64,000 nt of DNA, taken from contig NW_024055490.1 of the NCBI RefSeq assembly GCF_902713615.1, forward strand, positions 653,262-717,261, written 5' to 3'. The notes below the pieces were generated by a model that was given only the letters and a program-made list of their open reading frames with translations, ran no database searches and was not told the DNA's origin. The first letter of the stretch is position 1, and every line of letters begins with the position of its first letter. The DNA is from Scyliorhinus canicula. Lineage: Eukaryota. Positions 14,305-64,000 of this stretch are shown here, piece by piece. A program made the position numbers and the translations under genes.

Positions 14305-15252
14305 TTAATTGTGGCTTCGTTGGTGTCTCCGCAGGGAGGATGACTGAGTGAATCCCTTCCACACTGGGAGCAGGCGAATGGCCTCTCTCCAGTGTGCATT
14401 CGCTGATGTACAGTGCAGGTGAGATGAGTGTCTGAACCCAGTCCCGTAGTGAGAGCACCTAAACGGTTTCAAGTCAGTGTGAATACGTTGATGGCCTTAA
14501 GATTCCCAGAAATTTTGTCGCACTTCCCGCAGTCTGGACATTGAAACGGTCTTCATCAGTGTGAACCGCTGGTGTTTCAGCAGGGTCAGATGACTTAGTA
14601 AATCCCTTCCCCACACTGGGAGCAGGTGAACGGCCTCTCCCCAGTGTGAACTCGCTGGTGTATGGACAGAGTAGATGACTGAGTGAATCCTTTCCCACAC
14701 TTGGAGCAGGTGAATGGTCTCTCCCCAGTGTGAACTCGCTGGTGCTGCTGCAGAGCGGATGACTGAGTGAATCCCTTCCCACACGGTGCAGGCAAATAGC
14801 CTCTCCCAGTGTGAATTCGCTGATGCACAGTGAGGTTAGATGATTTTCTGAACCCAGTCCCACAGTGAGAACACCTGAACGGTCTCTCCTCAGTGTGAAC
14901 ACGTTGATTGGTGCATCAGATTCCCAGAACTTTTATAGCACTTCTTGCAGTCTGGACATGGAACGGTCTCTCATCAGTGTGAACCCACTTGTGTGTCTGC
15001 AGGTGGGATGACCGAGTGAAACCCTTCCCACACTTGGAGCAGGTGAATGGTCTCTCCCCAGTGTGACTGCGTTGATGAGTTGCCAGCTGGGATGAGGAAG
15101 TGAATCCTTTCCCATAGTCCACACATTTCCACGGTTTTCTCCTCGTGTGACTGCATTTGTGGCTTGTGAGGCCTGATGATCGAGTGAATCCTCGTCCTCA
15201 CACACATGTGTACGGTTTTCTCCCCACTGTGAACGATGCTTTTTCCTTCCAT
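14305..15252 (-). pseudogene. C2H2 zinc-finger pseudogene, paralogue of 21592-22797
   Basis: Fragments with [16 protein letters not shown] linkers broken by several frameshifts; start MEGKSIVHSGEK at 15252, stop TAA at 14305-14307; flanks match those of the intact gene. Confidence 0.85.
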
Positions 15253-21591: not shown

Positions 21592-22797
21592 TTACTTGTG
21601 GCCTCGTTGGTGTTTCAGCAGGTTGAAAGACTGAGTGAATCCCTTCCCAAACTTGGAGCAGGTGAACGGCCTATACCTTGCGTGAATTCGCTGGTGCATT
21701 TGCATGTTGGATAACTGAGTGAATCCCTTCCCACACTTGGAGCAGGTGAATGGCCTCTCCCCAGTGTGAATTCGCTGATGTGCAGTGAGGTCAGACGATC
21801 GCCTGAACCCAGTCCTGCAGTGAGAGCACCTGAATGGTCTCTCGTCAGTGTGAACACGTTGATGGCTCATCAGTTCCCCAGAACTTTTATAGCACTTCCC
21901 GCATTCTGGACATTGAAACGGTCTCTCATCAGTGTGAACTCGCTGGTGACTCAGCAGGTTGGATGACCGAGTGAATCCTTTCCCACACTGGGAGCAGGTG
22001 AATGGCCTCTCCCCAGTGTGAACTCGCTGATGTTCAGTGAGGTCAGACGATCGCCTAAACCCAGTCCCGCAGTGAGAGCACCTGAATGGTCTCTCGTCAG
22101 TGTGAACACGTTGATGGAGCATCAGTTCCCCAGAACTTTTATAGCACTTCCCGCAGTCTGGACATTGAAACGGTCTCTCATCAGTGTGAACTCGCTGGTG
22201 ATTCAGCAGGTTGGATGACTGAGTGAATCCTTTCCCACACTGGGAGCAGGTGAATGGTCTCTCCCCAGTGTGAATTCGCTGATGTTCAGTGAGGTCAGAT
22301 GATCGTCTGAACCCAGTCCCGCATTGAGAGCACCTGAACGGTTTCTCATCAGTGTGAACACGTTGATGGCGAATCAGATCCCCAGGACTTTTATAGCTCT
22401 TCACACAGTCTGGACATTGGTACGGTCTCTTATCAGTGTGAACCCGCTGGTGACTCAGCAGGTGGGATGAAATAGTAAATTCCTTCCCACACTTGGAGCA
22501 GGTGAATGGTCTCTCCCCAGTGTGAACTCGCTGGTGTCTCAGCAGGTGGGATGAATTAGTAAATCCCTTCCCACACTTGGAGCAGGTGAATGGTCTCTCC
22601 CCAGTGTGACTGCGTCGATGAGTTTCCAGCAGGGATGGGTAAGTGAATCCTTTCCCACAGTCCGCACATTTCCAGGGTTTCTCCTCGCTGTGACTGCATT
22701 TATGGCTTGTGAGGCCTGATGATCGAGCGAATCCTCGTCCACACACACAACACGTGTACGGTTTCCCCGCACTGTGAAAAATGCTTTCATGTTCCAT
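21592..22797 (-). CDS. C2H2 zinc-finger protein, 401 aa, 14 fingers (last one degenerate), no KRAB or SCAN in the ORF
   Basis: Intact ORF with CxxC-x12-HxxxH repeats and HT(G/D)ERPF linkers; acceptor-like TTTTAAATCAG at about 22900 upstream of the ATG. Confidence 0.9.
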
Positions 22798-25700
22798 GAT
22801 ATTCCGGATATGATAAATTGAAGTCTCTGTCAGATCCTGATGTTATGCTTAGTTTGAGTTTCCGGACTTTGAAGCCTCCCCTTCGAACACCCTGTGAAAC
22901 TGATTTAAAACAGAAAATAGGGAGTGAGAGAGAACCCACAAAAACACAAAGGCAGGTTGTGAAATTGAGCTGAATGAATCTGGCCATTTGTGGGGCCGAC
23001 ACTGGGAAAAAGTGACCATGAAAACTGCTGGATTGTCATAAAAACCCAACTGGCCTCTTTGGGAGGAGAGAGAAAGAGGTGAAGAGGGATTTTGTATATC
23101 TACAAGCCAGATTAAAGAGAATAGATGGCAAAGCAAATTCGATCTTGAGCTTCATGGACAGTAATATTGATGCCAAAACTATGCTTCTGGTGGCACGTGG
23201 TTAGCACTGTTGCCTCACAGTGCCAGGGACCTGGGTTAAATTCCGGCCTTGATGACTGTGTGGAATTTGCACTTTCTCCCCATGTCTGCGTGGGTTTCCA
23301 CCCGGTGCTCAGGTTTCCTCCAACAGTCCAAAGAAGGGCAAGTTAGGTGGATTGACCTTGATAAATTGCCCCTTAGTGTCCAGGGATGTGCAGGTTAGGT
23401 TGTGCTGTGGGGTTACAGGGACAGGGTAGTGGTGTGGGTCTAGACAGGCTGCCCGTCCAGAGAGTCGGTGTAGACTCGATGGGCTGAATGGCCTCCTTCT
23501 GCACTAGGAATTCTATGGTTCTAATTCTATTCTATGAATCTTTCTAAAGCTCTGGTCACCACTCTTCAGGAAGAATGTGAAGGTTCTTGGAGAAGGGGCA
23601 GAAAATTGCCAGAATGGTTCCAACAAAGGAGGTTGAGGGGAGATTTGATTCAGGTCCACAAGATTACGCGAGGTTTCCATCGGGTGGACAAAGAAACTCT
23701 GTTTCCATTCACTGATCGTACGAGCACTAGGTAGACAGATTTAAAGTTTTGGGTAAAAGCTGGATTGATCTATATAAGATCCTGAGGGGTCTTGACAAGT
23801 TTGATGTGGAGAGGATGTTTCCTCTTGTGGGAGAATCGAGAACGAGGGTATCACTGTTGCAAAATAAGGAGTCACCCATTTCAGATGGAGATGAGGATTT
23901 TTTATTCTCGAGGGTTGTAAAACTTTGGAAATCACGTCCTTAAAAGGCAGTAGGAGCAGAGTCCTTGAATCTTTTTAAGGCAGAACTGGATAGATTCTTG
24001 ATGAGCAAGGGGGTGAAAGGTCATCAGGGGTAGGCAGGAATGTGGAACTGAGGTTAGAATGAGGTCAGCCGCAATCTTATTGAATGCTGAGTAGGCTCGA
24101 GGGGCCGAGTGGCCTGATCCTAGTTTGTATGTAAAAGGTACAGGAGATATGAGGTGATATGAGATATATGTTTTTACACAGCGAGCGGCAATGACCTGAA
24201 ACTTGCTGCCGATCAGGGAGTTTGAAAACAGACACAATGAATGATTTGATTTGTAAAGGAAATTGGATTTGAGGGAAATAAACCTGCAAGAATAAAGGGA
24301 TAGAGCAGGAGAATGGCACTGACTGGATTGCTCCAGTGAGCTAGCATGGATTCAATGGGCCGCATGCCATTCTCTGTGCCATCATGTCTCTGACTCGTTT
24401 GTGTCATCTAGTTTTGTAATTTAACCCCAGAGGGTTCAGATATCACTCAGGTAAATCTGTGCTACACTCCCTCCGAGGCCATTCTATCCTTCCTCAGGCT
24501 TGTTGCCTGGAACTGAACACAGTTCTCCAGGTTTGGTCTAACCAGGGTTTGTGAATCTCGGGGCTTTTCCAGTCACACTGAGACCTGAAATCTTCCCTCA
24601 CAGACAGAACAGACAAACCTTTTACCTTCCACACCCAGATGCTGCTGAAATTCAGTTTCTAATGAATCGAGTGACTCTGTCAGATCACGATGTGACGTTT
24701 GGTTTGCGTTTCCCGTCTGTTAAACCTCCTCTTCCAGTATCCTATAAATTTACAGAAACCTCACTGTCAGTTTAGGATAGAAATTCACAACATTCTCTCC
24801 TCGCCAACTTTGATTAAATGTATTCCTGGAGGTTTGATCACATGACCTGTCCCCATCCTCCAGCCATTAATCGGTCAACACATCCATCCTTGTGACACAC
24901 TGCCTTCCTCGGCCAATTGGGAAGCAAAAGGACTCATTACCTTACAGGACAGTGATTGACTGTCAGCCAATCAACCTTTATCCCATTTTCAATATCTGAA
25001 GAGAAATATTCAAAAATCTTCTTTACTGTCCCAATGATTTTCTCGACACCCAGGTATGAATCTCACCAAGGCAGAAGGTAAAATTTGATTTCATTCAAAG
25101 TTTACTGATGACAATGGAACCATTGTCGATTGTTGCAAAGACCCATCAGGTTCACTCCTGTCCTTCAGTGAAGGAAATCTTCTATCCACACCTGGTCTGG
25201 CCTACATGTGATTCCAGATCCACAGTCAGCTGGTTGACTCTTAAAATGCTCTGAGATGCACTCAGTTCAAGGGCAATTAGGGATGGGCAGTGAATGCTGG
25301 CCCAGCCAGCGACACCCACATCCCGGGAATGAACAGAAAAGAAAATCTGCCATCCTTACCTGGTCTGGCCGACATGATTCCAAACCATAGCAATGTGGTT
25401 GACTCTTTAAATGCCCTCCGAGATGGCCAAGCCAGCCACTCGGTTTGAGGGAAATTAGGGATGGGCAATAAATGTTGGCCCAGCCAGTGACTCCCACAAA
25501 TGAATAAAATACAATCCTGGAGACTCCAGTCAGTCAATCCGGGCTAATTGGCATCCGGTCCAGACTCGCAGCGCATAATAATAATAATAATCATGTATTG
25601 TCACAAGTAGGCTTCAATGAAGTTACTGTGCAAAGCCCCTAGTCACCACATTCCAGCACCTGTTCAGGGAGGCTGGTACGGGAATTGAACACGCGCTGCT

Positions 25701-51104: not shown

Positions 51105-51333
51105 NNNNNNNNNNNNNNNNNNNNNNNNNNNNNNNNNNNNNNNNNNNNNNNNNNNNNNNNNNNNNNNNNNNNNNNNNNNNNNNNNNNNNNNNNNNNNNNN
51201 NNNNNNNNNNNNNNNNNNNNNNNNNNNNNNNNNNNNNNNNNNNNNNNNNNNNNNNNNNNNNNNNNNNNNNNNNNNNNNNNNNNNNNNNNNNNNNNNNNNN
51301 NNNNNNNNNNNNNNNNNNNNNNNNNNNNNNNNN
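51105..51333. other. Assembly gap (229 N)
   Basis: Run of N. Confidence 0.99.
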
Positions 51334-52849
51334 GACAACGTTATGTTTTTCATTCATTTACGGGATTATGGTGCCATTGACTGGGTCAGCAATTATGGCC
51401 CATTCCAAGTTGCCATTCAGAAGGTGGTGGTGAGCTGCCCTCTTGAATCGCTGCAGTCCCTACAGTGGGGCTGTTTAGCACAGGGCTAATTCGCTGGCTT
51501 TGAAAGCTGACGAAACAGGCCAGCAGCACAGTTCGATTCCCGTAACAGCCTCCCCAACAAGCGCCTAAATGTGGTGACTAGGGGCTTTTCACAGTAACTT
51601 CATTTGAAGCCGACTCGTGACAATGAGCGATTTTCATTTCATTTCAATTCCTGATATGCAGTTACACCCATACTGCTTTTAGCGAGAGAAGTCCAGTATT
51701 TTCATCCAGCCACAGTGAAGGAGCGGTGATATATTTGCAAGACAAGATGGTGAGTGATTTGGAGAGGAATCTCCAGTTGGTGGTGTTTCAAAGTATCTGC
51801 TGCTCAGGTCCTTGTTGATGGTTGTCGCCGTGGGTCAGGTAGGTGCTGAGTATGAAACCTTCATTAGTTCCAACAGTAAATCTTGTGGATGGCAACAATC
51901 AAGCGACTGCTTTGCCCTGGATGGTGCAAAGCTTCTTGAGGTTTGCTGAAGCTGCACTCCAGACAAGTGGAGCTTGTATTCCATTAAACTTCTGACCTTT
52001 GCCTTGCAAATGATGGACAGGCTTTGGACAATCGGGATGTGAGTTACTGGCTGTAGGATTCCTAGCCTTTGAACTGCTCTGGCAGCCACAGCATTCGTCT
52101 GGCTTGTCCAGATTAGTTTCCGGTCAATGACAACCCCCAGGATGCTGATTGTGCGGTAACCAATGCAAATAAATCTGATGCTCTATTCTGTGGGGTAGGA
52201 ACGTTTGTTATACAAAGTGAGACACAGAAGACTTCAGCCGTGAATGAAACAGAGTCTAACAAAATAATATCAGAGAGCGGGCATCGTATAATATAAATGG
52301 AGATTTGGTGCAGTTTTACAAATAATATCGAAAGATATAAACACTGAGAGGGTCTAATTTAGAGAGAACTGAGAAAGGACCTTTTTTATTTTAAACAATG
52401 ATATGACGAGTGCGGTAATAAATGAGATGCAACCCATTGCACGATTAATAATGGTATTATATCGCACAGTAATAACTAAAACAGAATGTAGCGTAACATT
52501 TACAGGTACAGAAACTGACATTAAATAAACGGAGCCGGCGGTGTACCTGAATTACTAAAACAGGGCCTCGATTAATACAGGTGGAGACAGTGCAGTGCAG
52601 TGGAAACCGAGAATTTCCTCCCACAGTCCAAAGATGCGCAGGTTAGGTGGATTGGCCATTCTAAAAGATTTTTCCTGAGTGTGCAAAGGTTAGATGAGGT
52701 TACGGGGATAGCATGGAGGATTGGTCCTCAGTGGGGTGCCGTTTTGGAGGGCGGGTGCAGACTCGATGGGCCGACTGGCCTCCTTCTGCACTGTCGGGAT
52801 TCTATGATTCTTTGAAAAGACCGGGATTCACAATAACTGGGGCAGGGTT

Positions 52850-53805
52850 TGTTTTTCTAATTTCACCTATATGTTTTAGAATTCCCTTTATACCAAAGAA
52901 CCTTACGGGCCAATATTCTAAAAACGGCGAACAGGGAACTACCTCCCTGACTCCAGTACAGGCCTCTGAGAGTGCTAATCGGGTCAAACTCTCCTTTCAA
53001 GTTATCCCCCGGTATAACTCCTACCTTCACTGAAGAATTTTACTTACTTACCCCTTAATGGCATTGATGTCCAGGGTCCTGCGTTCTTAAGGAAGTGAAG
53101 TAAGCTAATAACCACTTTTTCAGGTTAAATTATTTTATTATTAACATACTCTTTTTTATCTCATTAAATTAAACACATTATTTACTTTTTGATGTTGTCT
53201 GGTTGGTTGGTGAGGCCTTCAGACTCTCTCTCTCTCTCTTTCACTTTCAAGCCTCCTGGTCATCTCTCCTGGTGCAGTTTTCTCTTTTCCTCCTCTTCTG
53301 TCTTCTGTGGCTGCTGCTCGGCCGTCTTCCTTCTGGTCTGGTCTGGTCTTTTGGGCCGCTTCTCTCCTGGGCCTTCCCTCTCCTGGGCCGCTGCTCCTGC
53401 TGTCCTTCTTGCTTCTTCGGGTGCCGCTGGTGTTCTGCTGCTGGTGTCTTTGTTCTTGCTTCTTGCCTCGTGGGGAGAAAAAGGGGAGGAGTCTGAAGTC
53501 CACGCTGGTTTCTTTGTTTCAGCTGTTCTGATCGGGACGTCTGATAAGGATCGGACTTCGGGTCTTAAAGGGGCAGTCCATCACAATTTTCCAACAACAC
53601 AAAGAGATTTTTAAAAACTTTTTTCTTTTGCCTTTCTCCTGCTGTAGGTTGTAATAACCATTCTGATAGACTGAAATTGCTGCCCACAGTTTCTGTGCCC
53701 TTCAGCTGCCACCAACCTCTTGTGGGATCTTTCCCTGCACTCTCCCCGATCAGATGTTGGCAGACCTCTATGTTTCAAATGACACATTCTGTATTTTCCA
53801 GAACA
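52850..53805 (-). repeat. 3' LTR (956 bp)
   Basis: Identical by eye to the 5' LTR except one extra T in a T run near 53155. Confidence 0.95.
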
Positions 53806-53814
53806 CCCCGTCTT
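53806..53814 (-). promoter_or_regulatory. Short polypurine tract
   Basis: AAGACGGGG directly abutting the TG of the 3' LTR. Confidence 0.55.
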
Positions 53815-55123
53815 GACATTTGAAACATTACTATAATTTGGTTTATTGTCCCCCCATCCAATTGTACTAACCTACATCCCTGATCATTGTCATTTGTATG
53901 CATATCATAGACCAGTGTCAATACGAGTCTTGTTTTCCATTTCTGATTGGAATGTGGTAATTGTGATATCTTTTACCCCCCACTGATCCCCTAGTCTTAT
54001 TAATTTAAAATGTTCAATTGATCCTGCTTGTATTCCTAACTTCCCCATTAATGTCTAACATTGTCGTGAATCATGTAAGTCTGCCAACCCCTGGTTTACA
54101 TGAGAGAACATATTTCTGACCGTGTATATTTTTCATTTCAGCATTTACAAAACCGCATTGAACCGTCTCTTTTTTTTTCTTCCCAAACAAATTCTCCCTA
54201 TTGTTCTATACATAGTAAAATTTTTATCTTATCTTAACACCTTATTCATTACCTAACCAATAGACTGTGTGTTACACTTTACATATTTTCAACTGTTAAC
54301 AATTTAATATCAATATCGAAACATTGCTTCTTGGCTTTTGGAACAATCATTATTACATACTAACTAACCCTCTATTAAAACATTCACAGTTTAGAAATGC
54401 GGATCAAGTTATTTAACGACACACATACCCCCCTTCTCATATATATACAACAGTCCCTATCAATTTACATGAAAATAAAAAAAATTTCTTATCAACGATT
54501 ATAGCTCTTCAATGCAATATTGTTTTGTTGCATTGGTAACAATTTTCCCGCCGTAGTATCAAGCTACTGAAATTCTTAACCTATTATCATTGATCATATT
54601 GGGGTTCCTCGTCAGTCGCTGCTATCTGCTGCCGAGACCTTAATGATTCCACTGCGTAGTACATACCCCATGGAGACCACAGATCATCCATCAACTAATG
54701 TCCAGTTAGAGATGTCTGACCGGGGGTTTCACTGTCCAGTTATAATTTGATATTCTAATTTGCATTTAATTCCCTCAAATTTGTAGCCAATTATATCATT
54801 AGTTTCCCCCCAATCCTGTCGAACAGATTCTTCTCTGGAGTGTAGTTCTCTTCCTTCTCGCGAACTGGTTTGTTATTGGAGTGTAGTTCTCTTCCTTCTT
54901 GCGACCTGGTTTGTTATTAATTTTTTCCACCTGAAAAAGCAAATGAACAGATCAAGGGTGGAGAGGGCCCTATTCTTTAATTCGGATTATCCCAGAAGTG
55001 CCCTCTCCAGGACTTCCGGATTCCTTTTGCCATCATTTCTTTTTGAACTGGTTTATATTCCATATCCTTGATGTAGTCAAGCCTCCTTCTGTCATTGCAC
55101 CCCTGAGTGAGATTCGAAGAATC

Positions 55124-57280
55124 TCAAACTCCTCTGATGCTCACTGGGTCGTGTGTTTCAAGCGTGACACAATTTCTTTTGCTCCAGACACCATGCTTCT
55201 CTAATTCAATTGTATGTGTACCCAGAATCTGAACAATCTTGTCTTTACATTTTACAGTCTCGCGAATGATTTTCCCCGCAGTCTTAGTTGGTAACTTCAC
55301 CCAAACTTCGTCTCCTACTTGATAATTCCCAGATTCACTTGGGTCTCCTTGTCCCTGGGGGACAGAGGTTCCAAGGTTGCTATTAAGATCAAATACTATT
55401 CTTTCAATGTCTTTATCCCAGCCTTTATTATTCTGATTCTTTATGATCCAATCCTTTACTTTTCTTACAGACCTCTCAGCCATTCCATTACTCTCAGGTG
55501 CATATTTCACGGCCCAATTGATTGTTATTCCTCTGTCAGCACAAAAGTTAATAACAGTATTGTTTCTAAAGTGTGGCGCGTTGTCCATTCGGATCGATTC
55601 TGGTCTACCTCTGGAGGTCATCATTTCTGCCAATACCCTTTTGGTTGTGGCTCCATTTGCTTTGCTGGTTGCTCTAAGGTCAATTTCTCCCGTGCAGCTA
55701 TCAGCTTTGACTAAAAAATACAAATTACCTTTGCTGCTTCTGGGAAAAAGTGGTCCTGCATAATCTAATGACCATTCCTGCATTGGTTTCTCAGTTTTTA
55801 TGCTCCCATATGTTTTATTTCCTCTCTGTCCTCCACAGGCCATACATCTCTCACATTTTCTCCTTACTGCAGTTAAATGTTGTCTCCAATAGGCTATTTT
55901 AAGTCCCAACTTCTTCAACTCCCTTGCGACTACAACATGACCCCCATGTCCTGTGGCTTCATGTACTTGCTTAATTATCATTTGATGGTCGGCTGCTGAG
56001 TTCCCAAGAGTCCCCAAGATTATTGTCCTAAGTCTGGCTAATTCATCCACTTCCTGATTCCCCTTACACAGTTCCCCAATTCCTTTTGTGTGTGCTTTTT
56101 GATGAATTGTCTGGATCTCCATATCGGCTAAAATTTTATCTATCTCTTCCCACTGTTCTTTCTGTTCCAGTAGTTTATTTCTACCGTTCGTCCAACCGTT
56201 TAGTTTCCAAAACTCCAAATCTTTCTCCAATCCTTGCTGCACGAAAAAGCTATCGGTTACAACGGTAACTTCCTGCAGCTTTCGCTGGTGACACTCCTTT
56301 AACCCTTGCAATACTCCCTCTACCTCAGCTGTCTGAGCTGATCCAATGATTACTCCCTGTTCCTCTACTACTATGTTTCCTGAATTTTTAAAAATGAATG
56401 CCCATCTGGCTTGTTCTTCGTCCTTCTTGACTTTACTACCATCAGTATATAATACCCAAGCATTCACCAACTCCGTTTTACTAACTGGCTCATCAAGTTT
56501 CTGTCCCTTTTGAATATTATGAACAAACATTAAGTCAGGGTTTAGAAGAATGGTTTCCCATCTTTCCCATCGAGCTGTATTCGCGCCTTGCTGGCAAATC
56601 TGTCTCTTGGTTAGCTCCTTTAACTCCAAAAACTCAGTGGTGACATAAATTTTCTTACCACCCGACAAGTTTTCTATCTCTGCTATTCTCTTTGTTATAG
56701 CTGCTAGACATTTCTCGATGTTTGAAAACTTTTGTTCAGCTCTCGACCAGTTTCCTGTCAGATGTTTGATAGGTGTCTGATTGCTAAGATTAGCAAGTAC
56801 CATACCATATCCATTTTTATATATGTCTAATTTAATGCTTAAATCATCCTCTTCTTGTCTCCCAACTAATGACCCCGATATCGCAATTGCTGCCTTTAAC
56901 TGATCTAACCCTCTCTGGGCCTCGCTGGTCCAAATAAAATCCCCTTTCAAGGTTTGATAAATGGCTTTAGCATAGAGACTGAAGTCCTTCACTACTGGCC
57001 TTAGATATCCCAACATTCCCATTATTTTTTGAACCCCTTTTTTCGAAACCGGCGCAGTAATTTCAGCTATCTTCTTCCTCATTTCAATACTGGCCTCTCT
57101 ACCTTCCTTCGATACTGAATAACCCAAATAGTTGACTTCGCTTCTCCCAATTTGACATTTCTTTAGCCCTATTTTAAAGCCTGCTTCACCAAGTGTCTTA
57201 ATGATCCTGGCCACTCTTTCCACATGTTTGTCCTGATCGTCATCTCCAATTAATATATCATCGATATATACTAAGGCCAA
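55124..57280 (-). CDS. pol: Retroviral Pol, C-terminal part (RT YIDD, tether, RNase H, integrase)
   Basis: YIDD; degenerate RNase-H-like connection region followed by a catalytic RNase H (YTDGS, AQTAE, VTDS, GNQEVD); integrase HEATGH..CERC, LDYAG, MDNAP, SNGMAER; joined to the upstream ORF by a 1-nt frameshift at about 57377. Confidence 0.93.
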   Translation of the reverse strand: MALVYIDDILIGDDDQDKHVERVARIIKTLGEAGFKIGLKKCQIGRSEVNYLGYSVSKEGREASIEMRKKIAEITAPVSKKGVQKIMGMLGYLRPVVKDFSLYAKAIYQTLKGDFIWTSEAQRGLDQLKAAIAISGSLVGRQEEDDLSIKLDIYKNGYGMVLANLSNQTPIKHLTGNWSRAEQKFSNIEKCLAAITKRIAEIENLSGGKKIYVTTEFLELKELTKRQICQQGANTARWERWETILLNPDLMFVHNIQKGQKLDEPVSKTELVNAWVLYTDGSKVKKDEEQARWAFIFKNSGNIVVEEQGVIIGSAQTAEVEGVLQGLKECHQRKLQEVTVVTDSFFVQQGLEKDLEFWKLNGWTNGRNKLLEQKEQWEEIDKILADMEIQTIHQKAHTKGIGELCKGNQEVDELARLRTIILGTLGNSAADHQMIIKQVHEATGHGGHVVVARELKKLGLKIAYWRQHLTAVRRKCERCMACGGQRGNKTYGSIKTEKPMQEWSLDYAGPLFPRSSKGNLYFLVKADSCTGEIDLRATSKANGATTKRVLAEMMTSRGRPESIRMDNAPHFRNNTVINFCADRGITINWAVKYAPESNGMAERSVRKVKDWIIKNQNNKGWDKDIERIVFDLNSNLGTSVPQGQGDPSESGNYQVGDEVWVKLPTKTAGKIIRETVKCKDKIVQILGTHTIELEKHGVWSKRNCVTLETHDPVSIRGV

Positions 57281-57303
57281 ATCATCTTGAATCAGCTCCC
57301 TGA

Positions 57304-58563
57304 TTATTGCCTGAAAGTGATTTGGAGAATTAACATATCCCTGTGGAAGTCTACAATATACATAATGCTTAGTTCCAAGGTGAATGCTGTTTTCTCCCTG
57401 CTGTCTGGGTCTAATGGAACACTCCAGAATCCATTCGCCAAATCTATACTAGTTAAGTAAGTTTTTCCCGCGACTTGCTCTAAGGTAGCTTGTGGATTTA
57501 TTAAATATCTCTTGTCCTTCTTTGTGACTTTATTTAAAGCTTTGTAATTTGTTACCATTCTAAATGTACCATCTGGTTTTCTTACTACCTGAAGTGGACT
57601 ATTTGTTGAGGCATATGTGACCCCTTGAATAATCCCCTGCTGCTCCAATTCCTTGATTATTATCTCCAGCTCGCTCTTAGCTCCTCTAGGCAAAGGATAC
57701 TGTTTTTGAGGTCTGTGTTGTCCCCCGTGAATTGTGTGTTGAAATTGCTGGCTAAGCAAACCTGTGTCATTCTTACCTATCGCTAGGTTTGCTCCCATCA
57801 GTACTTCTTCCATCTTCTTCCAAGCTTCGTCATTTAAAATACTTTTCTCTTTCTGTTTCCTTATTTCCTCCATGTTATCAATTGGTTTTAATATCCTTAT
57901 TTTTCCAGTATCTATTTTTATTAAATCTTTCCCTGCCATCAGATTATCAGTTCCTGATATTGCCAGTAATTCTCCCAATCTAACTTCTGGCCTAATATCC
58001 TTATTCCCTAATGCTCCTTCTACTATGTATTTCTTTCCTGTCGGATTTCCAGCTTCTTCCCTTATCATTGATATCTCAGCCCCTGTGTCCACTATACATC
58101 TTTCCCCCTTGTATACTACTACTAATTCTCCTTTGTCTGTTTCTGTTGTTAGATTTTGTATAGCCTGTTTAAGGGGAGAAGCCGAATCCTGTCCATATAT
58201 ACCGGGGCCTCCTCTGCCTCCTCCTCGGAATCCCCCTCGCGAGCGTCCCGGATACCCTTCTGGTGGTTGATATCTACCTTGCTCAATCCTCCCCTGACCA
58301 GCTGCTCTTCTTCTCCTATCCTCAATGAATCTGTCTCTTTCCTCCCGACTGAGGGCTAGGAATTGTCCCCTTGGTAAATAATCTAGATTTTGTGGTGGAG
58401 GTGGCCCTTGTGACCGCAAATTATACCCATGTTGTGGCATTGCTGGTTGTGCTGGATTTTGTTCCGATTTGTCAGGTATCTGCCGGTTTGGTGGTCTAAT
58501 CTGAGCATTTTGTGTTGAAACATTATTCTGGGCAGCTGCTCTTTTTTGTTCCCCTTTTGTGGC
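57304..58563 (-). CDS. gag-pol: Gag C-terminus (GYNLR, GR box) in frame with protease and RT N-terminus
   Basis: Frame open from 58563; QHGYNLRSQGPPPP, RSRGGFRGGGRGG, CIVDTGAEIS, NSPLQVVRKPDG.FRMV, DLANGFWSVPL; restoring one T gives FTFGTKHYVYCRLPQGYVNSP. Confidence 0.88.
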   Translation of the reverse strand, partial: ATKGEQKRAAAQNNVSTQNAQIRPPNRQIPDKSEQNPAQPAMPQHGYNLRSQGPPPPQNLDYLPRGQFLALSREERDRFIEDRRRRAAGQGRIEQGRYQPPEGYPGRSRGGFRGGGRGGPGIYGQDSASPLKQAIQNLTTETDKGELVVVYKGERCIVDTGAEISMIREEAGNPTGKKYIVEGALGNKDIRPEVRLGELLAISGTDNLMAGKDLIKIDTGKIRILKPIDNMEEIRKQKEKSILNDEAWKKMEEVLMGANLAIGKNDTGLLSQQFQHTIHGGQHRPQKQYPLPRGAKSELEIIIKELEQQGIIQGVTYASTNSPLQVVRKPDGTFRMVTNYKALNKVTKKDKRYLINPQATLEQVAGKTYLTSIDLANGFWSVPLDPDSREKTAFTLELSIMYIVDFHRDMLILQITFRQ

Positions 58564-59417
58564 TTATCCTTAAATGCTTTGCCTGCCAAATCAAATTTAA
58601 CCAGTTCTCTTCCTATTTCTCTTCTAGAGGTCGTTAACAGTATTATTGAGAGGCTTTTCCCCCCTGGAATCTTGGGTCCTAATTCCCTCAGGAATCTGAC
58701 TACATCGACCCCCTCTTCCTTATTAACCTCATATATTCGGTCGATATATGGTGTGAGGTGTTCCCCTGCATATGCTGCCTCTGTCATCTCTTTCATTAAA
58801 TTAGCTCTCTCATTTCCCAAATCTAACTCACTTATTAAATCTGAGACTTCGCCTGTAACTATTTCTCCCACTGTATGTAAATCAATCAATTTGGTGGATT
58901 CTCCTGATGCCCCCATTTTCTTCGCTAACTGTTTTAACCTCTGTGAATACTCAATTTTACTCTCCCCATGTTTCTTTGGGCCTGCTGTCTTCATTACGGC
59001 TGCTACTATTTTATACGGTACCATGCCTCCCTGTCCTTCCTCTGGACCTGGTGTAAATGACTGAACTATTTTCTCACTTCTGGGGCATGGTGTTCTCAAA
59101 GGGGCACCTCTATCTGGGTCCCTATATTCGGAGAAATGTATCCGTCGTCGTACCGGTTCTTCCTCAAAATAGGGGGTACCATGTTGTGCAAACTCTTCCA
59201 CCGATTCTATATATTCTTCAAACCTTGCACTTGGTACCTGGCTATCTCGTGGAGCATAACTTGCCCTATCCATTGGAGTAGGAGCAGTTTTTTGGGGTCT
59301 TGGACGATTCTGTATCCTTTCCTGTGGTCTTAGTGCTGCTATTATCTGGCCTTGTGTTTCTGTGCTGTTCCTTACCCTACTCATGGCTCTTCCGAAACTG
59401 TCATACCCTTTGCTCAT
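58383..59417 (-). CDS. gag: Gag central (capsid-like) ORF, 344 aa
   Basis: Position directly 5' of the GR-box/PR frame; low-complexity N-terminus then a helical-looking domain; no direct motif match was made. Confidence 0.65.
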   Translation of the reverse strand: MSKGYDSFGRAMSRVRNSTETQGQIIAALRPQERIQNRPRPQKTAPTPMDRASYAPRDSQVPSARFEEYIESVEEFAQHGTPYFEEEPVRRRIHFSEYRDPDRGAPLRTPCPRSEKIVQSFTPGPEEGQGGMVPYKIVAAVMKTAGPKKHGESKIEYSQRLKQLAKKMGASGESTKLIDLHTVGEIVTGEVSDLISELDLGNERANLMKEMTEAAYAGEHLTPYIDRIYEVNKEEGVDVVRFLRELGPKIPGGKSLSIILLTTSRREIGRELVKFDLAGKAFKDKPQKGNKKEQLPRIMFQHKMLRLDHQTGRYLTNRNKIQHNQQCHNMGIICGHKGHLHHKI

Positions 59418-60409
59418 TTGCCAAATTTTAGCTTTGGGGTAACGTTTGGTAATTCTAGTAATTTCGTAGAATCAATTTGTTGACTTCCGCCTAATATTTC
59501 TCCTATTTTAAGTCCCCTAGCTGTAACCTCTCTTTCCCATCCTTCCTGATCTCTATGGTGTACCATTTCTGCTTCTGGATTATACATATAATACGGTACA
59601 TCCTTATTTACTGGTTGATAAGTGGAAGGTTGTTGGTGTTTCCAGTGATCGCTATAATCCCCTATTTCTAATGGTTTAGAATTTTTTCTATTCCCTATTC
59701 CTCTCTTTGGTTTGACTATTTCCTCATTCTCGGATGAGGATGATAATTCTTCCTGTCCCATCACAGGAGGCGCCATAATCCCAACTATGCCTTGTTCCTC
59801 TTCACTTTCTTGTGGTTCAACGAAATGATCGATAAACGCTTCTTTCTTATGTGTGGCAGATTGCTGAGGCCAATTTTCTTCCTGAAACAGACTTGGATCT
59901 GGGTATGGAAAATTGTATCCCGTTGGGAAATTTTCACAGGAGTCCGAATTCTCTCGGCTATCTGATTCTAGGCCTGATTCCTCGTCACTTTCCATTTCTA
60001 ATGGTTCATTTTTCTGCAGTTGTTTTATATATTTGCCTACCATTTCAGAGTTAATTTTGTGTTTACTATGGATCTGTATTATTTCTGTCCTGTTTACTCC
60101 GTCAATGATTTTAATCAGTTTGGAACACACTTTGCCCACTTGAGCAGCTGCATGCTTCTGTCTGTGTCCAAATACGATTAGTGATTCAGCTCGCTTTTCA
60201 AATGCAAACTGACAAAGTGCTTTAAGGACCCTGACTGAATCTGTATATTGCAGGGCTTTTGGCACTCTAACAAAGAGGGAGATATCTCCGTCTGGATACA
60301 TATCGCTTGTCCAGGATTTCTTTTGCTCTTTTAATTTCTTCCATTCCCTTTTCATTTCTACATTTCTCTTGACCGTATCCCAGGGCATGAGAATTACCCT
60401 AATTGCCAT
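59414..60409 (-). CDS. 5' ORF of unknown function, 331 aa (pre-gag accessory ORF or Gag N-terminus)
   Basis: Good Kozak context aaaATGG at 60409; stop overlaps the next start as ATGA at 59414-59417. Confidence 0.7.
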   Translation of the reverse strand: MAIRVILMPWDTVKRNVEMKREWKKLKEQKKSWTSDMYPDGDISLFVRVPKALQYTDSVRVLKALCQFAFEKRAESLIVFGHRQKHAAAQVGKVCSKLIKIIDGVNRTEIIQIHSKHKINSEMVGKYIKQLQKNEPLEMESDEESGLESDSRENSDSCENFPTGYNFPYPDPSLFQEENWPQQSATHKKEAFIDHFVEPQESEEEQGIVGIMAPPVMGQEELSSSSENEEIVKPKRGIGNRKNSKPLEIGDYSDHWKHQQPSTYQPVNKDVPYYMYNPEAEMVHHRDQEGWEREVTARGLKIGEILGGSQQIDSTKLLELPNVTPKLKFGK

Positions 60410-60835
60410 TTTCGGATTTTTAGTTCTGTTCCTGGTTGTCCCTTTCAGGTGCACTCTGAAATTAAGGATAAGTACCCTTTCTGGGCCCTATCCAAGGCTG
60501 ACCAAGGCACTATCTTCCTGCTCTAGTTAAGGGTCGATTGATTATTGGTTTCTGAATATAAGCGTCCCTATTTTCCAGAAAATGTCCGCACAATCCGCCT
60601 TACTCTGAGGATGATTTATTCTTTAGCCCCTTTTACCAGTGATGGATGCAAGATTTTAGTGCTATCACCAAAATGTCTTGCAGACTTTTTCTCAGGGTCA
60701 GTATCTTCTAGTCTACTGATTTTCACACCCAACCTGAGCTTCAGTCCCCTCGATCCACAGAATATCCTTACAAAAGCCAATCACACCTGACTTTCCAAAC
60801 TAAACTCGGAAGGTAAAGTTTGACTCACACATAGA

Positions 60836-61105
60836 CTAGAAACTTCTAATATTCTAGCCTTTTTGCCGGTTAGAAACTTCTAATATTCCACCCGTTTCTT
60901 GGGAACTAGAAACTTCTAATATTCTAGCCCCTACTCTGCTTAACTAGAAACTTCTAATATTCTAGCCTCGCTTTACCTAGAAACTTCTAATATTCTAGGC
61001 TTTTCTTGGGAACTAGAAACTTCTAATATTCTAGCCCCTACTCTGCTTAACTAGAAACTTCTAATATTCTAGCCTCGCTTTACCTAGAAACTTCTAATAT
61101 TCTAG
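60836..61105. repeat. Array of eight 22-bp repeats CTAGAAACTTCTAATATTCTAG with 11-16-bp spacers in the proviral leader
   Basis: Units start at 60836, 60870 (variant), 60906, 60944, 60977, 61013, 61051 and 61084. Confidence 0.95.
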
Positions 61106-61106
61106 G

Positions 61107-61124
61107 CCTCCACGCTGGGCGCCA
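61107..61124 (-). promoter_or_regulatory. Primer-binding site, tRNA-Lys(CTT) type
   Basis: TGGCGCCCAGCGTGGAGG directly after the LTR CA, similar to the Lys1,2 PBS TGGCGCCCAACGTGGGGC. Confidence 0.85.
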
Positions 61125-62079
61125 TGTTTTTCTAATTTCACCTATATGTTTTAGAATTCCCTTTATACCAAAGAACCTTACGGGCCAATATTCTAAAAAC
61201 GGCGAACAGGGAACTACCTCCCTGACTCCAGTACAGGCCTCTGAGAGTGCTAATCGGGTCAAACTCTCCTTTCAAGTTATCCCCCGGTATAACTCCTACC
61301 TTCACTGAAGAATTTTACTTACTTACCCCTTAATGGCATTGATGTCCAGGGTCCTGCGTTCTTAAGGAAGTGAAGTAAGCTAATAACCACTTTTTCAGGT
61401 TAAATTATTTTATTATTAACATACTCTTTTTATCTCATTAAATTAAACACATTATTTACTTTTTGATGTTGTCTGGTTGGTTGGTGAGGCCTTCAGACTC
61501 TCTCTCTCTCTCTTTCACTTTCAAGCCTCCTGGTCATCTCTCCTGGTGCAGTTTTCTCTTTTCCTCCTCTTCTGTCTTCTGTGGCTGCTGCTCGGCCGTC
61601 TTCCTTCTGGTCTGGTCTGGTCTTTTGGGCCGCTTCTCTCCTGGGCCTTCCCTCTCCTGGGCCGCTGCTCCTGCTGTCCTTCTTGCTTCTTCGGGTGCCG
61701 CTGGTGTTCTGCTGCTGGTGTCTTTGTTCTTGCTTCTTGCCTCGTGGGGAGAAAAAGGGGAGGAGTCTGAAGTCCACGCTGGTTTCTTTGTTTCAGCTGT
61801 TCTGATCGGGACGTCTGATAAGGATCGGACTTCGGGTCTTAAAGGGGCAGTCCATCACAATTTTCCAACAACACAAAGAGATTTTTAAAAACTTTTTTCT
61901 TTTGCCTTTCTCCTGCTGTAGGTTGTAATAACCATTCTGATAGACTGAAATTGCTGCCCACAGTTTCTGTGCCCTTCAGCTGCCACCAACCTCTTGTGGG
62001 ATCTTTCCCTGCACTCTCCCCGATCAGATGTTGGCAGACCTCTATGTTTCAAATGACACATTCTGTATTTTCCAGAACA
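61125..62079 (-). repeat. 5' LTR (955 bp)
   Basis: TGTTCTGG..AAAAACA; contains the donor-like site GGG|GTAAGT at 61327|61326. Confidence 0.95.
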
Positions 62080-64000
62080 GGTTCTAATGCAGGGGTTACT
62101 GTTACAGGGTAAATATTCATAATAACGGAGACAGGGTGTGCAGCAATGATTCATGGAGGGGTGTCCAGAACCAGGGACACAGTCTAAGGATATAGATGAG
62201 CAGAAATTTATTGACCTAGAGTGATGAGCCTGTGAAATTATCTCCCACACAAAACAGTTGAGGCCAAAACTTTGTATATTTGCTGGAAGGAATTATATAT
62301 ATAGCTCTTGTGGCTTTAGGGATCATAGGATATGGAGGGAAAGCGAGAACAGTTTACTGAGTTGGATGATCAGCCACGATCAGAATGAATGGAAGAGCAA
62401 GTTCAAGGGACCGAACGGCCTACTCCTTCACCTATTGTCCATGCTTCTATACCTCTATTGTTCTATGTAATGCAAGAAAACCTAAATTATATATAAACTG
62501 AAACAGGATCTAGTACAGTAATTCCTGACACAGGGTCTAGATTAATATAAACTGAGACAAGGTCAAGTGCAGTGATTTCTGATGGGGGGTGTCTTCAGTA
62601 ATGTAAATTTAGACAGGGTTCTAGTACACTCATTGTTGATAGAGCGTTGAGATTACTATAAAGTGGGTCAGATTCTAGTGGCGAAGCGAGACAGGGTCGA
62701 TTGCAGGGTCGGCCCAAGATTAATGTTAATCAATGAAGGGCCGAGTGTGGTGTTCACCGTTAAATGGTTGAGATTTTATGCATTAATACATATGTGCATT
62801 TTTTTCTGAGCCTTTGTGTTTGTGGCCATTTTCACACCAAAATCCTGCACAAATAATTCCTTTGTTTTATACACCGATTAATGGGATGGAGCATGGGGAA
62901 CTTTTCTCTCCACATACCCTGCATTTTTCCTGCTCTGCGAGTACCTGATAGTACGCCAAAAAAGAAGCTTTACTCTGTCCCTTACATGTGCTTTACCTGT
63001 CCTTCGCACGTCAGATGGCGGATGTTGTGGAGGGGGCTTTATTCTGTACTGTACCTGTCCTTCGAGTATTTGAGGGGAGATTGTTAAGGGAAGTTTACTC
63101 AGTAACTAAATCTTTACTGTTGATGCCCTGGGAGTATAAAATGGGACAGGTTTCAGGAAGCTTTATTCTTCATCTCTTCCTGTGATGCATTTGGCCTGAG
63201 AGTGTTTGCTGGTTCAGAGTGCAGGAAGCTTTGCTCTGTATACAACCCCGTCCTGTACCTGACCTGCGAGAATTAGACGGAATAGTTTAGACAAGCAGAG
63301 CGTTACTGAACCTGCCCTTGGAATCCTGATGGGACACGGGGAATGGAAAGGTCTGGGACAAATATCTTAATGTCTGTGTAATATATGAAAAGTGGGGAAA
63401 ATTGATGCTCAGGTGATGAAAGGGGCAGGAGCAGAATGTACACAACAGCGACTAAGGGACAGAATACAGTGTACCTGTTAACAATTGTTTCAGATTGGGT
63501 GGGGTACAGAGTGTTATTCTCCAGTGGGTAATATTAGCAGCATTGTTTTTCCTGTTATATATTAATAGACAGGACTCGGGACTCGGGTTCACAGGATATC
63601 AATTCAAAAGTTGCATTTGTATCCCAAATTGACAATGTAGTAAACAGGAAAGAGGATTACGTACATAGATACATAGAAGTTAGGAGCAGGAGGAGGCTTT
63701 TTGGCCCTTCGAGCCTGCTCCGCCATTTATCACGATCATAGCTGATCATCCAACTCAATAGCCTAACCCTGCTTTCTCCCTACAACCATTGATCTCATTC
63801 TCCCCAAGTGCTATATCTAGCCGCCTCTTGAATATATTAAATGTTTTCTGATCAACTATTTCCTGTGCTAATGAATTCCACTAGCTCACCACTCTTTGGG
63901 TGAAGAAATGTCCCCTCAACTCTGTCCGAAATGAATCCTGAATCCTCAGACTATGGCCCCTGGTTCTGGACACACACATCATCGGTAACATCTTCCCTCC

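What the first reader, a model, noticed from the sequence alone, without database searches (positions are those of the whole stretch)
60836..61105. Repeat-spacer array of eight palindrome-ended 22-mers directly behind the PBS
Seen: CTAGAAACTTCTAATATTCTAG x8 (7 exact, 1 variant) with spacers of 12, 14, 16, 11, 14, 16 and 11 bp. The last six units form a 107-bp higher-order duplication (60892-60998 / 60999-61105), and the array ends 1 bp from the PBS. Each unit can fold as a 6-bp stem (CUAGAA/UUCUAG) with a 10-nt loop in the genomic RNA. As DNA it contains GAAnnTTC and matches the heat-shock consensus CTnGAAnnTTCnAG at 9 of 10 defined positions. Two spacers carry TTCTTGGGAA (STAT-type TTCn4GAA). 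Established: retroviral leaders hold packaging/dimerisation hairpins, and some LTR elements carry tandem protein-binding arrays in the 5' UTR (gypsy insulator). Inference: a multimerised packaging/Gag-binding hairpin array, or a stress- or cytokine-responsive enhancer. Constant repeats with divergent spacers suggest selection on the repeat itself.
Basis: partly seen in the sequence, partly recalled or inferred. Interest (0 to 1): 0.82.

Follow-up and report, generated by a model that had tools for sequence, protein, structure and literature searches.

The report
Eight-hairpin array in shark retrovirus leader
A young retrovirus-like element in a catshark genome carries eight near-identical RNA hairpins right after its priming site, most likely a multiplied signal for packaging or pairing its genome rather than a heat-shock switch, although no function has been tested.

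Summary
The array is real: eight 22-mers (7 exact, 1 variant), spacers as reported, 1 bp from an 18-nt tRNA-Lys-type PBS. It lies in the leader of a very young, env-less foamy-like provirus (minus strand, 52850-62079; LTRs differ by one indel). The published catshark family sequence ERV-Spuma.0-Sca appears to hold the same eight-unit array, unannotated.

On the genomic-RNA strand each stem extends into the 'spacers' to 8-10 bp, largely by G-U pairs and with pair changes between units (85% of cells paired, 0 of 500 shuffles; opposite strand 72%, 16 of 500). The 10-nt loop is invariant and the linkers are short and purine-rich. The unit is therefore an RNA hairpin plus linker, at the position of foamy-virus dimerisation/packaging sequences. 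The covariation rests on few events and fails two stricter tests.

The heat-shock reading fails: only two in-phase nGAAn units, at background level. The STAT site is one duplicated event.

Best reading: a multivalent Gag-binding/dimer-linkage array (about 0.45). Rivals: splicing/translation control, slippage minisatellite, DNA enhancer. New variant of a known kind; interest 0.5.

The parts
60833..61107 (-). Array of eight RNA hairpins: 22-nt cores at 60836-61105, stems extended to 8-10 bp by flanking bases, invariant 10-nt loop UAUUAGAAGU, linkers of 6-10 nt
60892..61105 (-). 107-bp higher-order duplication of three units (60892-60998 / 60999-61105), 105 of 107 identical
60870..60891 (-). Variant unit: 3 substitutions, loop intact, one A-U pair changed to G-U, terminal core pair mismatched, three G-C/C-G flanking pairs
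61107..61124 (-). Primer binding site, 15 of 18 identical to the tRNA-Lys PBS printed for the fish element AciFLERV; abuts the LTR
   Evidence: comparison by eye
61125..62079 (-). 5' LTR (955 bp, TG...CA)
52850..53805 (-). 3' LTR (956 bp); differs from the 5' LTR by one 1-bp indel, 0 substitutions
62080..62083 (-). 4-bp target-site duplication (partner at 52846-52849)
53804..53814 (-). 3' polypurine tract with the GGGTG motif at the PPT/LTR border
60409..60832 (-). Rest of the leader up to the first gag-frame ATG (60409); consensus-like splice donor 7 nt past the last core (GT at 60828)
58383..60487 (-). gag region (two overlapping ORFs, 59414-60487 and 58383-59471), assigned by position; no Cys-His box; no Pfam or database match
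55124..58563 (-). Gag C-terminal Gly/Arg-rich stretch, protease, RT (57304-58563) and RT-tether-RNase H-integrase (55124-57448); closest solved structure is foamy virus Pr125Pol
53806..55123 (-). 1.3-kb post-pol region with no env-sized ORF

Best explanation
The array is a cis-acting element of the unspliced genomic RNA of a foamy-like endogenous retrovirus. Each unit folds as an 8-10-bp hairpin that presents the same 10-nt loop, and 6-10-nt A/G-rich single strands separate the hairpins (predicted; supported by pair changes between units). The array sits directly 3' of the PBS, where foamy viruses keep their dimer-linkage and packaging sequences (CAS-I). The most likely job is a multivalent landing pad: the Gly/Arg-rich Gag C-terminus binds repeated loops and purine linkers, and the interchangeable self-complementary arms let two genomes pair in several registers (both steps inferred). 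It grew to five units and then to eight by template switching during reverse transcription (duplication shown, mechanism inferred). It is probably kept because more sites raise packaging or dimer efficiency in an element that lacks env and would copy itself inside germ cells (inferred).
For: Genomic-sense fold -98.9 kcal/mol, z -4.26, with all eight in-unit hairpins in the centroid; the opposite strand gives -66.4, z -2.12. In the five units outside the younger copy, the four exact cores have 11 consecutive flanking pairs on the sense strand against 1.85 +/- 1.58 with shuffled spacers (0 of 500), and 1 against 2.03 on the antisense strand. Over 6 distinct rows: 85% of cells paired (0 of 500 shuffles), covariation 0.253 (1 of 500), cells with a double change 4 (2 of 500); antisense 71.7% (16 of 500) and 0.067 (144 of 500). 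At the two positions flanking the core all 12 cells pair, 7 of them as G-U, which a DNA palindrome cannot use. Loops are 10 of 10 identical in all unit pairs, while 5 of 6 spacer pairs align no better than shuffles at p<0.05. Linkers are 46 of 55 purines. Three of the four most structured 270-nt windows of the provirus cover the leader. The published family sequence shows eight units, and its variant unit closes with U-A where the others have C-G (by eye). Foamy CAS-I holds the PBS and dimer-linkage sites SI-SIII. Retroviral Gag/NC favours unpaired purines. Direct repeats are deleted often in reverse transcription, 41% per cycle in one assay, so persistence suggests a benefit.
Against: The units are related, so the covariation rests on about 4-5 independent changes. 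The two stricter measures are not significant: pairs with a double change 85 of 500, further pair types 11 of 500. The antisense control also exceeds most shuffles on cells paired (16 of 500). Total folding energy with shuffled spacers gives only p=0.078. One terminal pair is broken in the window's variant unit, and one flanking pair is broken (C-U) in the published sequence. The loop is not tuned for duplex formation (29% of loop shuffles do as well), and the leader has no perfect palindrome of 8 nt or more, unlike foamy SII. In PFV the SII palindrome mutation leaves packaging intact, and packaging also needs CAS-II in pol. The array is not visibly more conserved than the adjoining leader in the one sister sequence. 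No binding, probing or packaging data exist here.
Confidence: 0.45

Rival explanations
1. The hairpins are an RNA element, but for processing or translation rather than packaging: a multimerised host-protein site that controls splicing or export of unspliced RNA, or a structured block bypassed by ribosomal shunting.
For: It shares all the RNA-structure evidence. The array lies between consensus-like donors at 61326/61322 and 60828, the latter 7 nt past the last core. An ATG at the LTR/PBS junction opens a 7-codon uORF that stops in the first hairpin, and PFV uses sORF-plus-stem shunting. The loop holds UAG and AGAA words, recalled as hnRNP A1/Musashi and Tra2 motifs (from memory, not tested).
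Against: A CA|TGG junction makes an ATG by construction. In PFV the sORFs end upstream of a long stem, not inside a short one. The transcription start and the donors actually used are unknown. The short protein motifs are common words.
Confidence: 0.2
2. A near-neutral minisatellite: one leader hairpin makes reverse transcriptase pause and switch template, so units are repeatedly duplicated and homogenised; unit number has no selected function.
For: Exact 107-bp block duplication. Spacer lengths differ between the window and the published sequence in the PBS-proximal block. Tandem repeats are common in LTR-element UTRs and vary within families. The G...U flanks could be inherited from one ancestral unit. 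Conservation against the sister sequence is not above the local background.
Against: Slippage copies spacer and core together, yet the four spacer types are mostly unalignable while cores stay 19-22 of 22 and loops 10 of 10 identical. Flank changes mostly keep pairing. Repeats are normally lost in reverse transcription.
Confidence: 0.2
3. A DNA-level array of protein sites (enhancer, silencer or insulator) downstream of the LTR promoter, like the gypsy 5'-UTR insulator, including the heat-shock/STAT version.
For: The core is a 16-of-22 dyad with two GAAnnTT-type half-dyads; each unit has a head-to-head two-site element, which HSF DNA-binding domains can bind in crystals. The core reads like a four-pentamer HSE lacking two central bases (seen in the sequence). 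Tandem 5'-UTR repeats act as insulators or enhancers in Drosophila elements. An invariant core fits a protein site.
Against: A typical HSE needs at least three alternating pentamers. The best here is 7 of 9, with 252 such positions in the window and none of the 23 sites at 8 of 9 inside the array; two gap-type 8-of-9 hits against 22 window-wide. The two dyads are offset by 8 bp, not 10. TTCn4GAA is one duplicated event with 19 others in the window. G-U extension on one strand only is not predicted by a double-stranded DNA site.
Confidence: 0.15

Closest known systems
ERV-Spuma.0-Sca, catshark foamy-like ERV family (PMC10699275)
   Same: Published sequence 9,220 nt against 9,230 here. Same PBS; eight units of the same core; leader past the array differs at about 6 of 248 visible nt (by eye).
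   Different: LTR 866 nt against 955 and clearly diverged (about 20 differences in 124 visible U5 nt). Two PBS-proximal spacers are shorter. The paper annotates only LTRs and ORFs and does not mention the array in the passages found.
Foamy virus CAS-I dimer-linkage sites SI-SIII (PMC5035957, PMC5874298)
   Same: Same region (PBS to gag start) in a foamy-like element; self-complementary, with CUAG words as in the SII palindrome.
   Different: SII is a single perfect palindrome. Here there are eight imperfect hairpins and no perfect palindrome of 8 nt or more.
MLV SL-A to SL-D and RD-114 psl-1 to psl-5 (PMC5874298)
   Same: Several leader stem-loops that act together in dimerisation; MLV SL-C and SL-D share a loop.
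   Different: Gammaretroviral; different hairpins rather than a tandem array of one; read by zinc-knuckle NC, which this Gag lacks.
Repetitive structural motifs (RSMs) in ssRNA virus packaging signals, such as coronavirus SL5 (PMC8206606, search listing and abstract start only)
   Same: Repeated hairpins with an invariant loop proposed as multivalent capsid-binding sites.
   Different: Unrelated viruses; an analogy of design only.
ZFERV repeat region (PMC3382231) and gypsy/ZAM 5'-UTR repeats (PMC3286476)
   Same: Tandem repeat blocks inside fish ERVs or LTR elements; ZFERV has 9 direct repeats in 517 bp. Its position in the leader is recalled, not seen.
   Different: Longer units; the gypsy array is a DNA insulator; no hairpin covariation described in the passages read.

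Membership tests
Foamy-like ERV (FLERV, class III) | Pol closest to foamy viruses, with tether plus second RNase H | tested here: met
   Pr125Pol E 4.9e-55 against Ty3 6e-25 and MLV 2.8e-21; RT_RNaseH and RNase_H domains. No tree was built.
Foamy-like ERV (FLERV, class III) | tRNA-Lys-type PBS | tested here: met
   15 of 18 identical to the PBS printed in the PMC5512871 supplement
Foamy-like ERV (FLERV, class III) | 4-nt target-site duplication and GGGTG at the PPT/LTR border | tested here: met
Foamy-like ERV (FLERV, class III) | Gag without Cys-His box, Gly/Arg-rich C-terminus | tested here: met
   0 CCHC boxes in 3 of 3 gag-region ORFs; Gly/Arg-rich stretch in ORF 57304-58563
Foamy-like ERV (FLERV, class III) | env and accessory genes | tested here: not met
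   No minus-strand ORF of 80 aa or more between pol and the 3' LTR; the element is env-less or env-degraded
ERV-Spuma.0-Sca family | Near-identical internal sequence | tested here: inconclusive
   Leader about 2-3% different over 248 visible nt by eye; coding regions not compared; LTR diverged
Heat-shock element | At least three alternating nGAAn pentamers | tested here: not met
   Best 7 of 9 core bases, background level
Foamy dimer-linkage site SII | Perfect palindrome of 8-10 nt downstream of the PBS | tested here: not met
   No perfect palindrome of 8 nt or more in 60409-61124
Retroviral packaging/dimer-linkage element | Structured RNA in the PBS-to-gag leader | tested here: met
   (prediction and within-array covariation)
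Retroviral packaging/dimer-linkage element | Needed for encapsidation or dimerisation; bound by Gag | not testable with these tools
   needs experiments
CRISPR-like repeat-spacer array | Unique acquired spacers of about 25-45 nt (recalled) | tested here: not met
   Spacers are 11-16 nt, recur with period three and supply stem pairs
Known Rfam RNA family | Match to a covariance model | tested here: not met
   No match over the array at E up to 5; 3 weak matches elsewhere in 52000-64000

The most novel reading that the evidence does not exclude
A foamy-like retrovirus lineage has replaced the single palindromic dimer signal with an expandable array of identical loop-presenting hairpins. Unit number tunes how well a genome competes for Gag, so the array grows under selection among co-existing, env-less copies in the shark germ line. 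This would give a natural, countable recognition motif for a Gly/Arg-box Gag, for which no specific RNA motif is established.
Probability: 0.3. Interest if true: 0.72.

Novelty: new variant of a known kind. Interest (0 to 1): 0.5.

Why it matters
Which RNA motifs foamy-type Gag recognises is stated as an open question in the foamy review read here (PMC5035957). An eight-fold repeat with an invariant loop gives a ready candidate and a built-in dose series. The family has 293 listed elements in the small-spotted catshark, so unit number and covariation can be tested computationally. If the array is only a slippage product or a generic UTR repeat, it is an unannotated detail of a described ERV family.

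Tried and rejected
Heat-shock element scan, perfect, gap and step types: background level. STAT sites: one duplicated event. Rfam: nothing over the array. Loop tuned for duplex formation: not supported; every unit gives a homodimer 6.6 kcal/mol below two hairpins, but 29% of 2000 loop shuffles match that. Alternative register pairing the 3' arm of one unit with the 5' arm of the next: first flank pair formed in 4 of 7 junctions, against 8 of 8 within units. The loop 10-mer does not recur exactly elsewhere on the provirus sense strand (8 exact, 10 with two mismatches). None of the 8 tRNA-like genes in the window matches the PBS. Gag N-terminal ORF search among longer proteins: 0 of 2174 candidates; second gag ORF against PDB: nothing below E 0.3. 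Literature searches for the motif or the element found only PMC10699275. The leaders of three other FLERVs shown in a supplement have no visible array in the first 200-300 nt past the PBS (by eye).

Full report
Observation. The array is as described. Eight 22-mers lie at 60836-61105, seven exact and one with three substitutions, with spacers of 12, 14, 16, 11, 14, 16 and 11 bp, and no further copy with up to five mismatches in the 64 kb. An 18-nt core has 8 matches against 0.04 expected. The last six units form two 107-bp blocks, identical at 105 of 107 positions. Removing the younger block leaves five units and four spacer types.

Setting. The array lies in a provirus on the minus strand. Its LTRs (61125-62079 and 52850-53805) differ by one 1-bp indel and no substitution, and it has a 4-bp target-site duplication and GGGTG at the PPT/LTR border. 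With the rate used in PMC10699275 (5e-10 per site per year) the insertion is younger than about 3 Myr. Pol is closest to foamy Pr125Pol among solved structures (E 4.9e-55, against 6e-25 for Ty3). Its best database hit is a Scyliorhinus torazame protein at 84% identity over 376 aligned residues. The PBS matches the tRNA-Lys PBS printed for AciFLERV at 15 of 18. The gag region has no Cys-His box and ends Gly/Arg-rich. These are the features that PMC5210030 lists for fish foamy-like ERVs (section 3.4 read). gag-pol is spread over four overlapping ORFs, so it is broken in three places, and there is no env-sized ORF. The host is most likely a catshark (inference).

Sister sequence. The supplement of PMC10699275 prints a sequence with the same PBS and eight units. 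I take it to be ERV-Spuma.0-Sca because that is the only shark entry in Table S4 and its length, 9,220 nt, fits; I did not see the label beside it. The PDF text drops about 9 nt per line, so I inferred the hidden parts and compared by eye. The leader past the array differs at about 6 of 248 visible nt, U5 at about 20 of 124. In the array I see three differences: two shorter spacers in the PBS-proximal block, and a different first base in the variant unit. So the array is a family feature and not a one-off or an assembly error. Its conservation, however, is no higher than the adjoining leader at this small distance. The paper's annotation lists LTRs and ORFs only, and its main text has no 'PBS' and two 'repeat' hits, both about LTRs. 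A full-text search for the motif and the element found only that paper. The claim 'not described' rests, in an open-access library only.

The unit is an RNA hairpin. On the genomic-sense strand the region folds at -98.9 kcal/mol (z -4.26), and the centroid shows all eight in-unit hairpins; the other strand gives -66.4 (z -2.12). The stems continue into the spacers. At the two positions outside the core all 12 cells of the 6 distinct rows pair: 7 as G-U, 3 as G-C, 2 as C-G. The third position shows G-C, A-U and C-G in three rows and is unpaired in three. With cores fixed and spacers shuffled, the four exact cores of the five-unit set have 11 flanking pairs against 1.85 +/- 1.58 (0 of 500); on the antisense strand they have 1 against 2.03. 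Cells paired are 85% (0 of 500) and covariation 0.253 (1 of 500), against 71.7% (16 of 500) and 0.067 (144 of 500) antisense. The variant unit keeps one changed pair as G-U, and in the published sequence it closes with U-A where the others have C-G. Loops are identical in all unit pairs while spacers mostly do not align. The remaining linkers are 6-10 nt and 46 of 55 purines.

Limits of that evidence. The units share ancestry, so only about 4-5 independent changes are involved. The two measures that are robust to relatedness are not significant (85 and 11 of 500). The whole-fold energy test gives p=0.078. One core-terminal pair is broken in the window, and one flanking pair in the published sequence. 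In-unit stem probabilities are about 0.6-0.7 for most units, 0.33 for the variant in the longest context and 0.95-0.97 for the last. I rate RNA-level structure at about 0.65-0.7.

DNA readings. A typical HSE has at least three alternating nGAAn units (PMC8379338, passages). Each unit here has two in phase. The best three-unit score is 7 of 9, reached or exceeded at 252 window positions, and none of the 23 sites at 8 of 9 lies in the array. Two gap-type hits at 8 of 9 compare with 22 window-wide. The core does read like a four-pentamer HSE missing two central bases, which is why a DNA role is not excluded, but that spacing breaks the 5-bp phase. TTCn4GAA occurs twice through one duplication and 19 times elsewhere.

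How it most likely works. Shown: the repeat, the duplication, the position, and the strand-biased pairing pattern. From papers: foamy CAS-I spans the PBS to the start of gag and holds three dimer-linkage sites, and the motifs that bind Gag are still unknown (PMC5035957, passages); SII is a palindrome whose loss blocks replication but not packaging (PMC5874298, section 11); Gag/NC prefers unpaired purines (PMC13736810, passages); direct repeats are deleted often in reverse transcription (PMC3187697, passages). Inferred: the array is a multivalent Gag-binding and dimer-linkage platform, expanded by template switching and kept because it improves genome selection. Against a specific dimer role, the loop is no better for duplex formation than shuffled loops and no perfect palindrome of 8 nt or more exists. 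I put this reading at 0.45, RNA processing or translation control at 0.2, a slippage minisatellite at 0.2 and a DNA element at 0.15. The processing rival draws on donor-like sites on both sides of the array and a 7-codon uORF ending in the first hairpin, and on PFV shunting (PMC2761275, passages).

Comparison. It works like multi-hairpin retroviral leaders (MLV SL-A to SL-D, RD-114) and, by design, like the repetitive structural motifs of other RNA viruses (PMC8206606, listing and abstract start only). It is not a member of the SII or HSE classes by their defining features. Repeat blocks in retroelements have precedent: ZFERV has 9 direct repeats in 517 bp (PMC3382231, passages), and gypsy-type 5'-UTR repeats act as insulators (PMC3286476, passages). 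Three other FLERV leaders shown in the PMC5512871 supplement have no visible array just past the PBS. PMC5512871 main text, PMC8278194 and PMC9016899 (passages) added nothing on leader repeats.

Verdict. The feature is real, shared with the family sequence, and apparently undescribed. It is best read as an eight-hairpin leader array of a known catshark foamy-like ERV family. It is a new variant of a known kind, with function untested; interest 0.5. Individual sister loci were not available here, and they are the decisive missing evidence.

Noticed in passing
window 61125-61102 (-): An ATG formed by the LTR end and the PBS start opens a 7-codon uORF whose stop lies in the 5' arm of the first hairpin.
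   Followed up: partly
window 61326, 61322 and 60828 (-): Consensus-like splice donors flank the array: a tandem pair in the LTR and one 7 nt past the last core. The transcription start could not be placed (AATAAA at 61414, TATAAA at 61167).
   Followed up: partly
window 57304-58563 (-): One stop-free frame runs from the Gly/Arg-rich Gag end through protease into RT, whereas the published family annotation lists gag and pol as separate ORFs in one frame. It also holds a YNLR word, recalled as resembling the foamy Gag chromatin-binding motif.
   Followed up: no
window 61125-62079 against the published family sequence: The LTR is much more diverged and longer (955 against 866 nt) than the internal leader, suggesting LTR subfamilies or LTR exchange.
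   Followed up: partly
window 54438-54428 (-) and 54820-54918: A second PPT-like purine tract and a 41-bp tandem duplication in the env-less post-pol region.
   Followed up: no
window 61218-61203 (-): A U5 stretch resembles the 3' end of tRNA-Lys3 (recalled, not tested).
   Followed up: no
window 62921-63333: Seven degenerate repeats at about 58-68 bp spacing outside the provirus (family D2).
   Followed up: no
window 21592-22842 (-), 14338-15125, 34943-35668 (-), 9931-10806 (+): A C2H2 zinc-finger ORF, a second 84-bp-period repeat likely of the same kind, an Ig V-set ORF and an RT ORF of another retroelement; eight tRNA-like genes, five of them probably SINE-derived.
   Followed up: no
window 51105-51333: Assembly gap of 229 N, 1.5 kb beyond the 3' LTR.
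   Followed up: no
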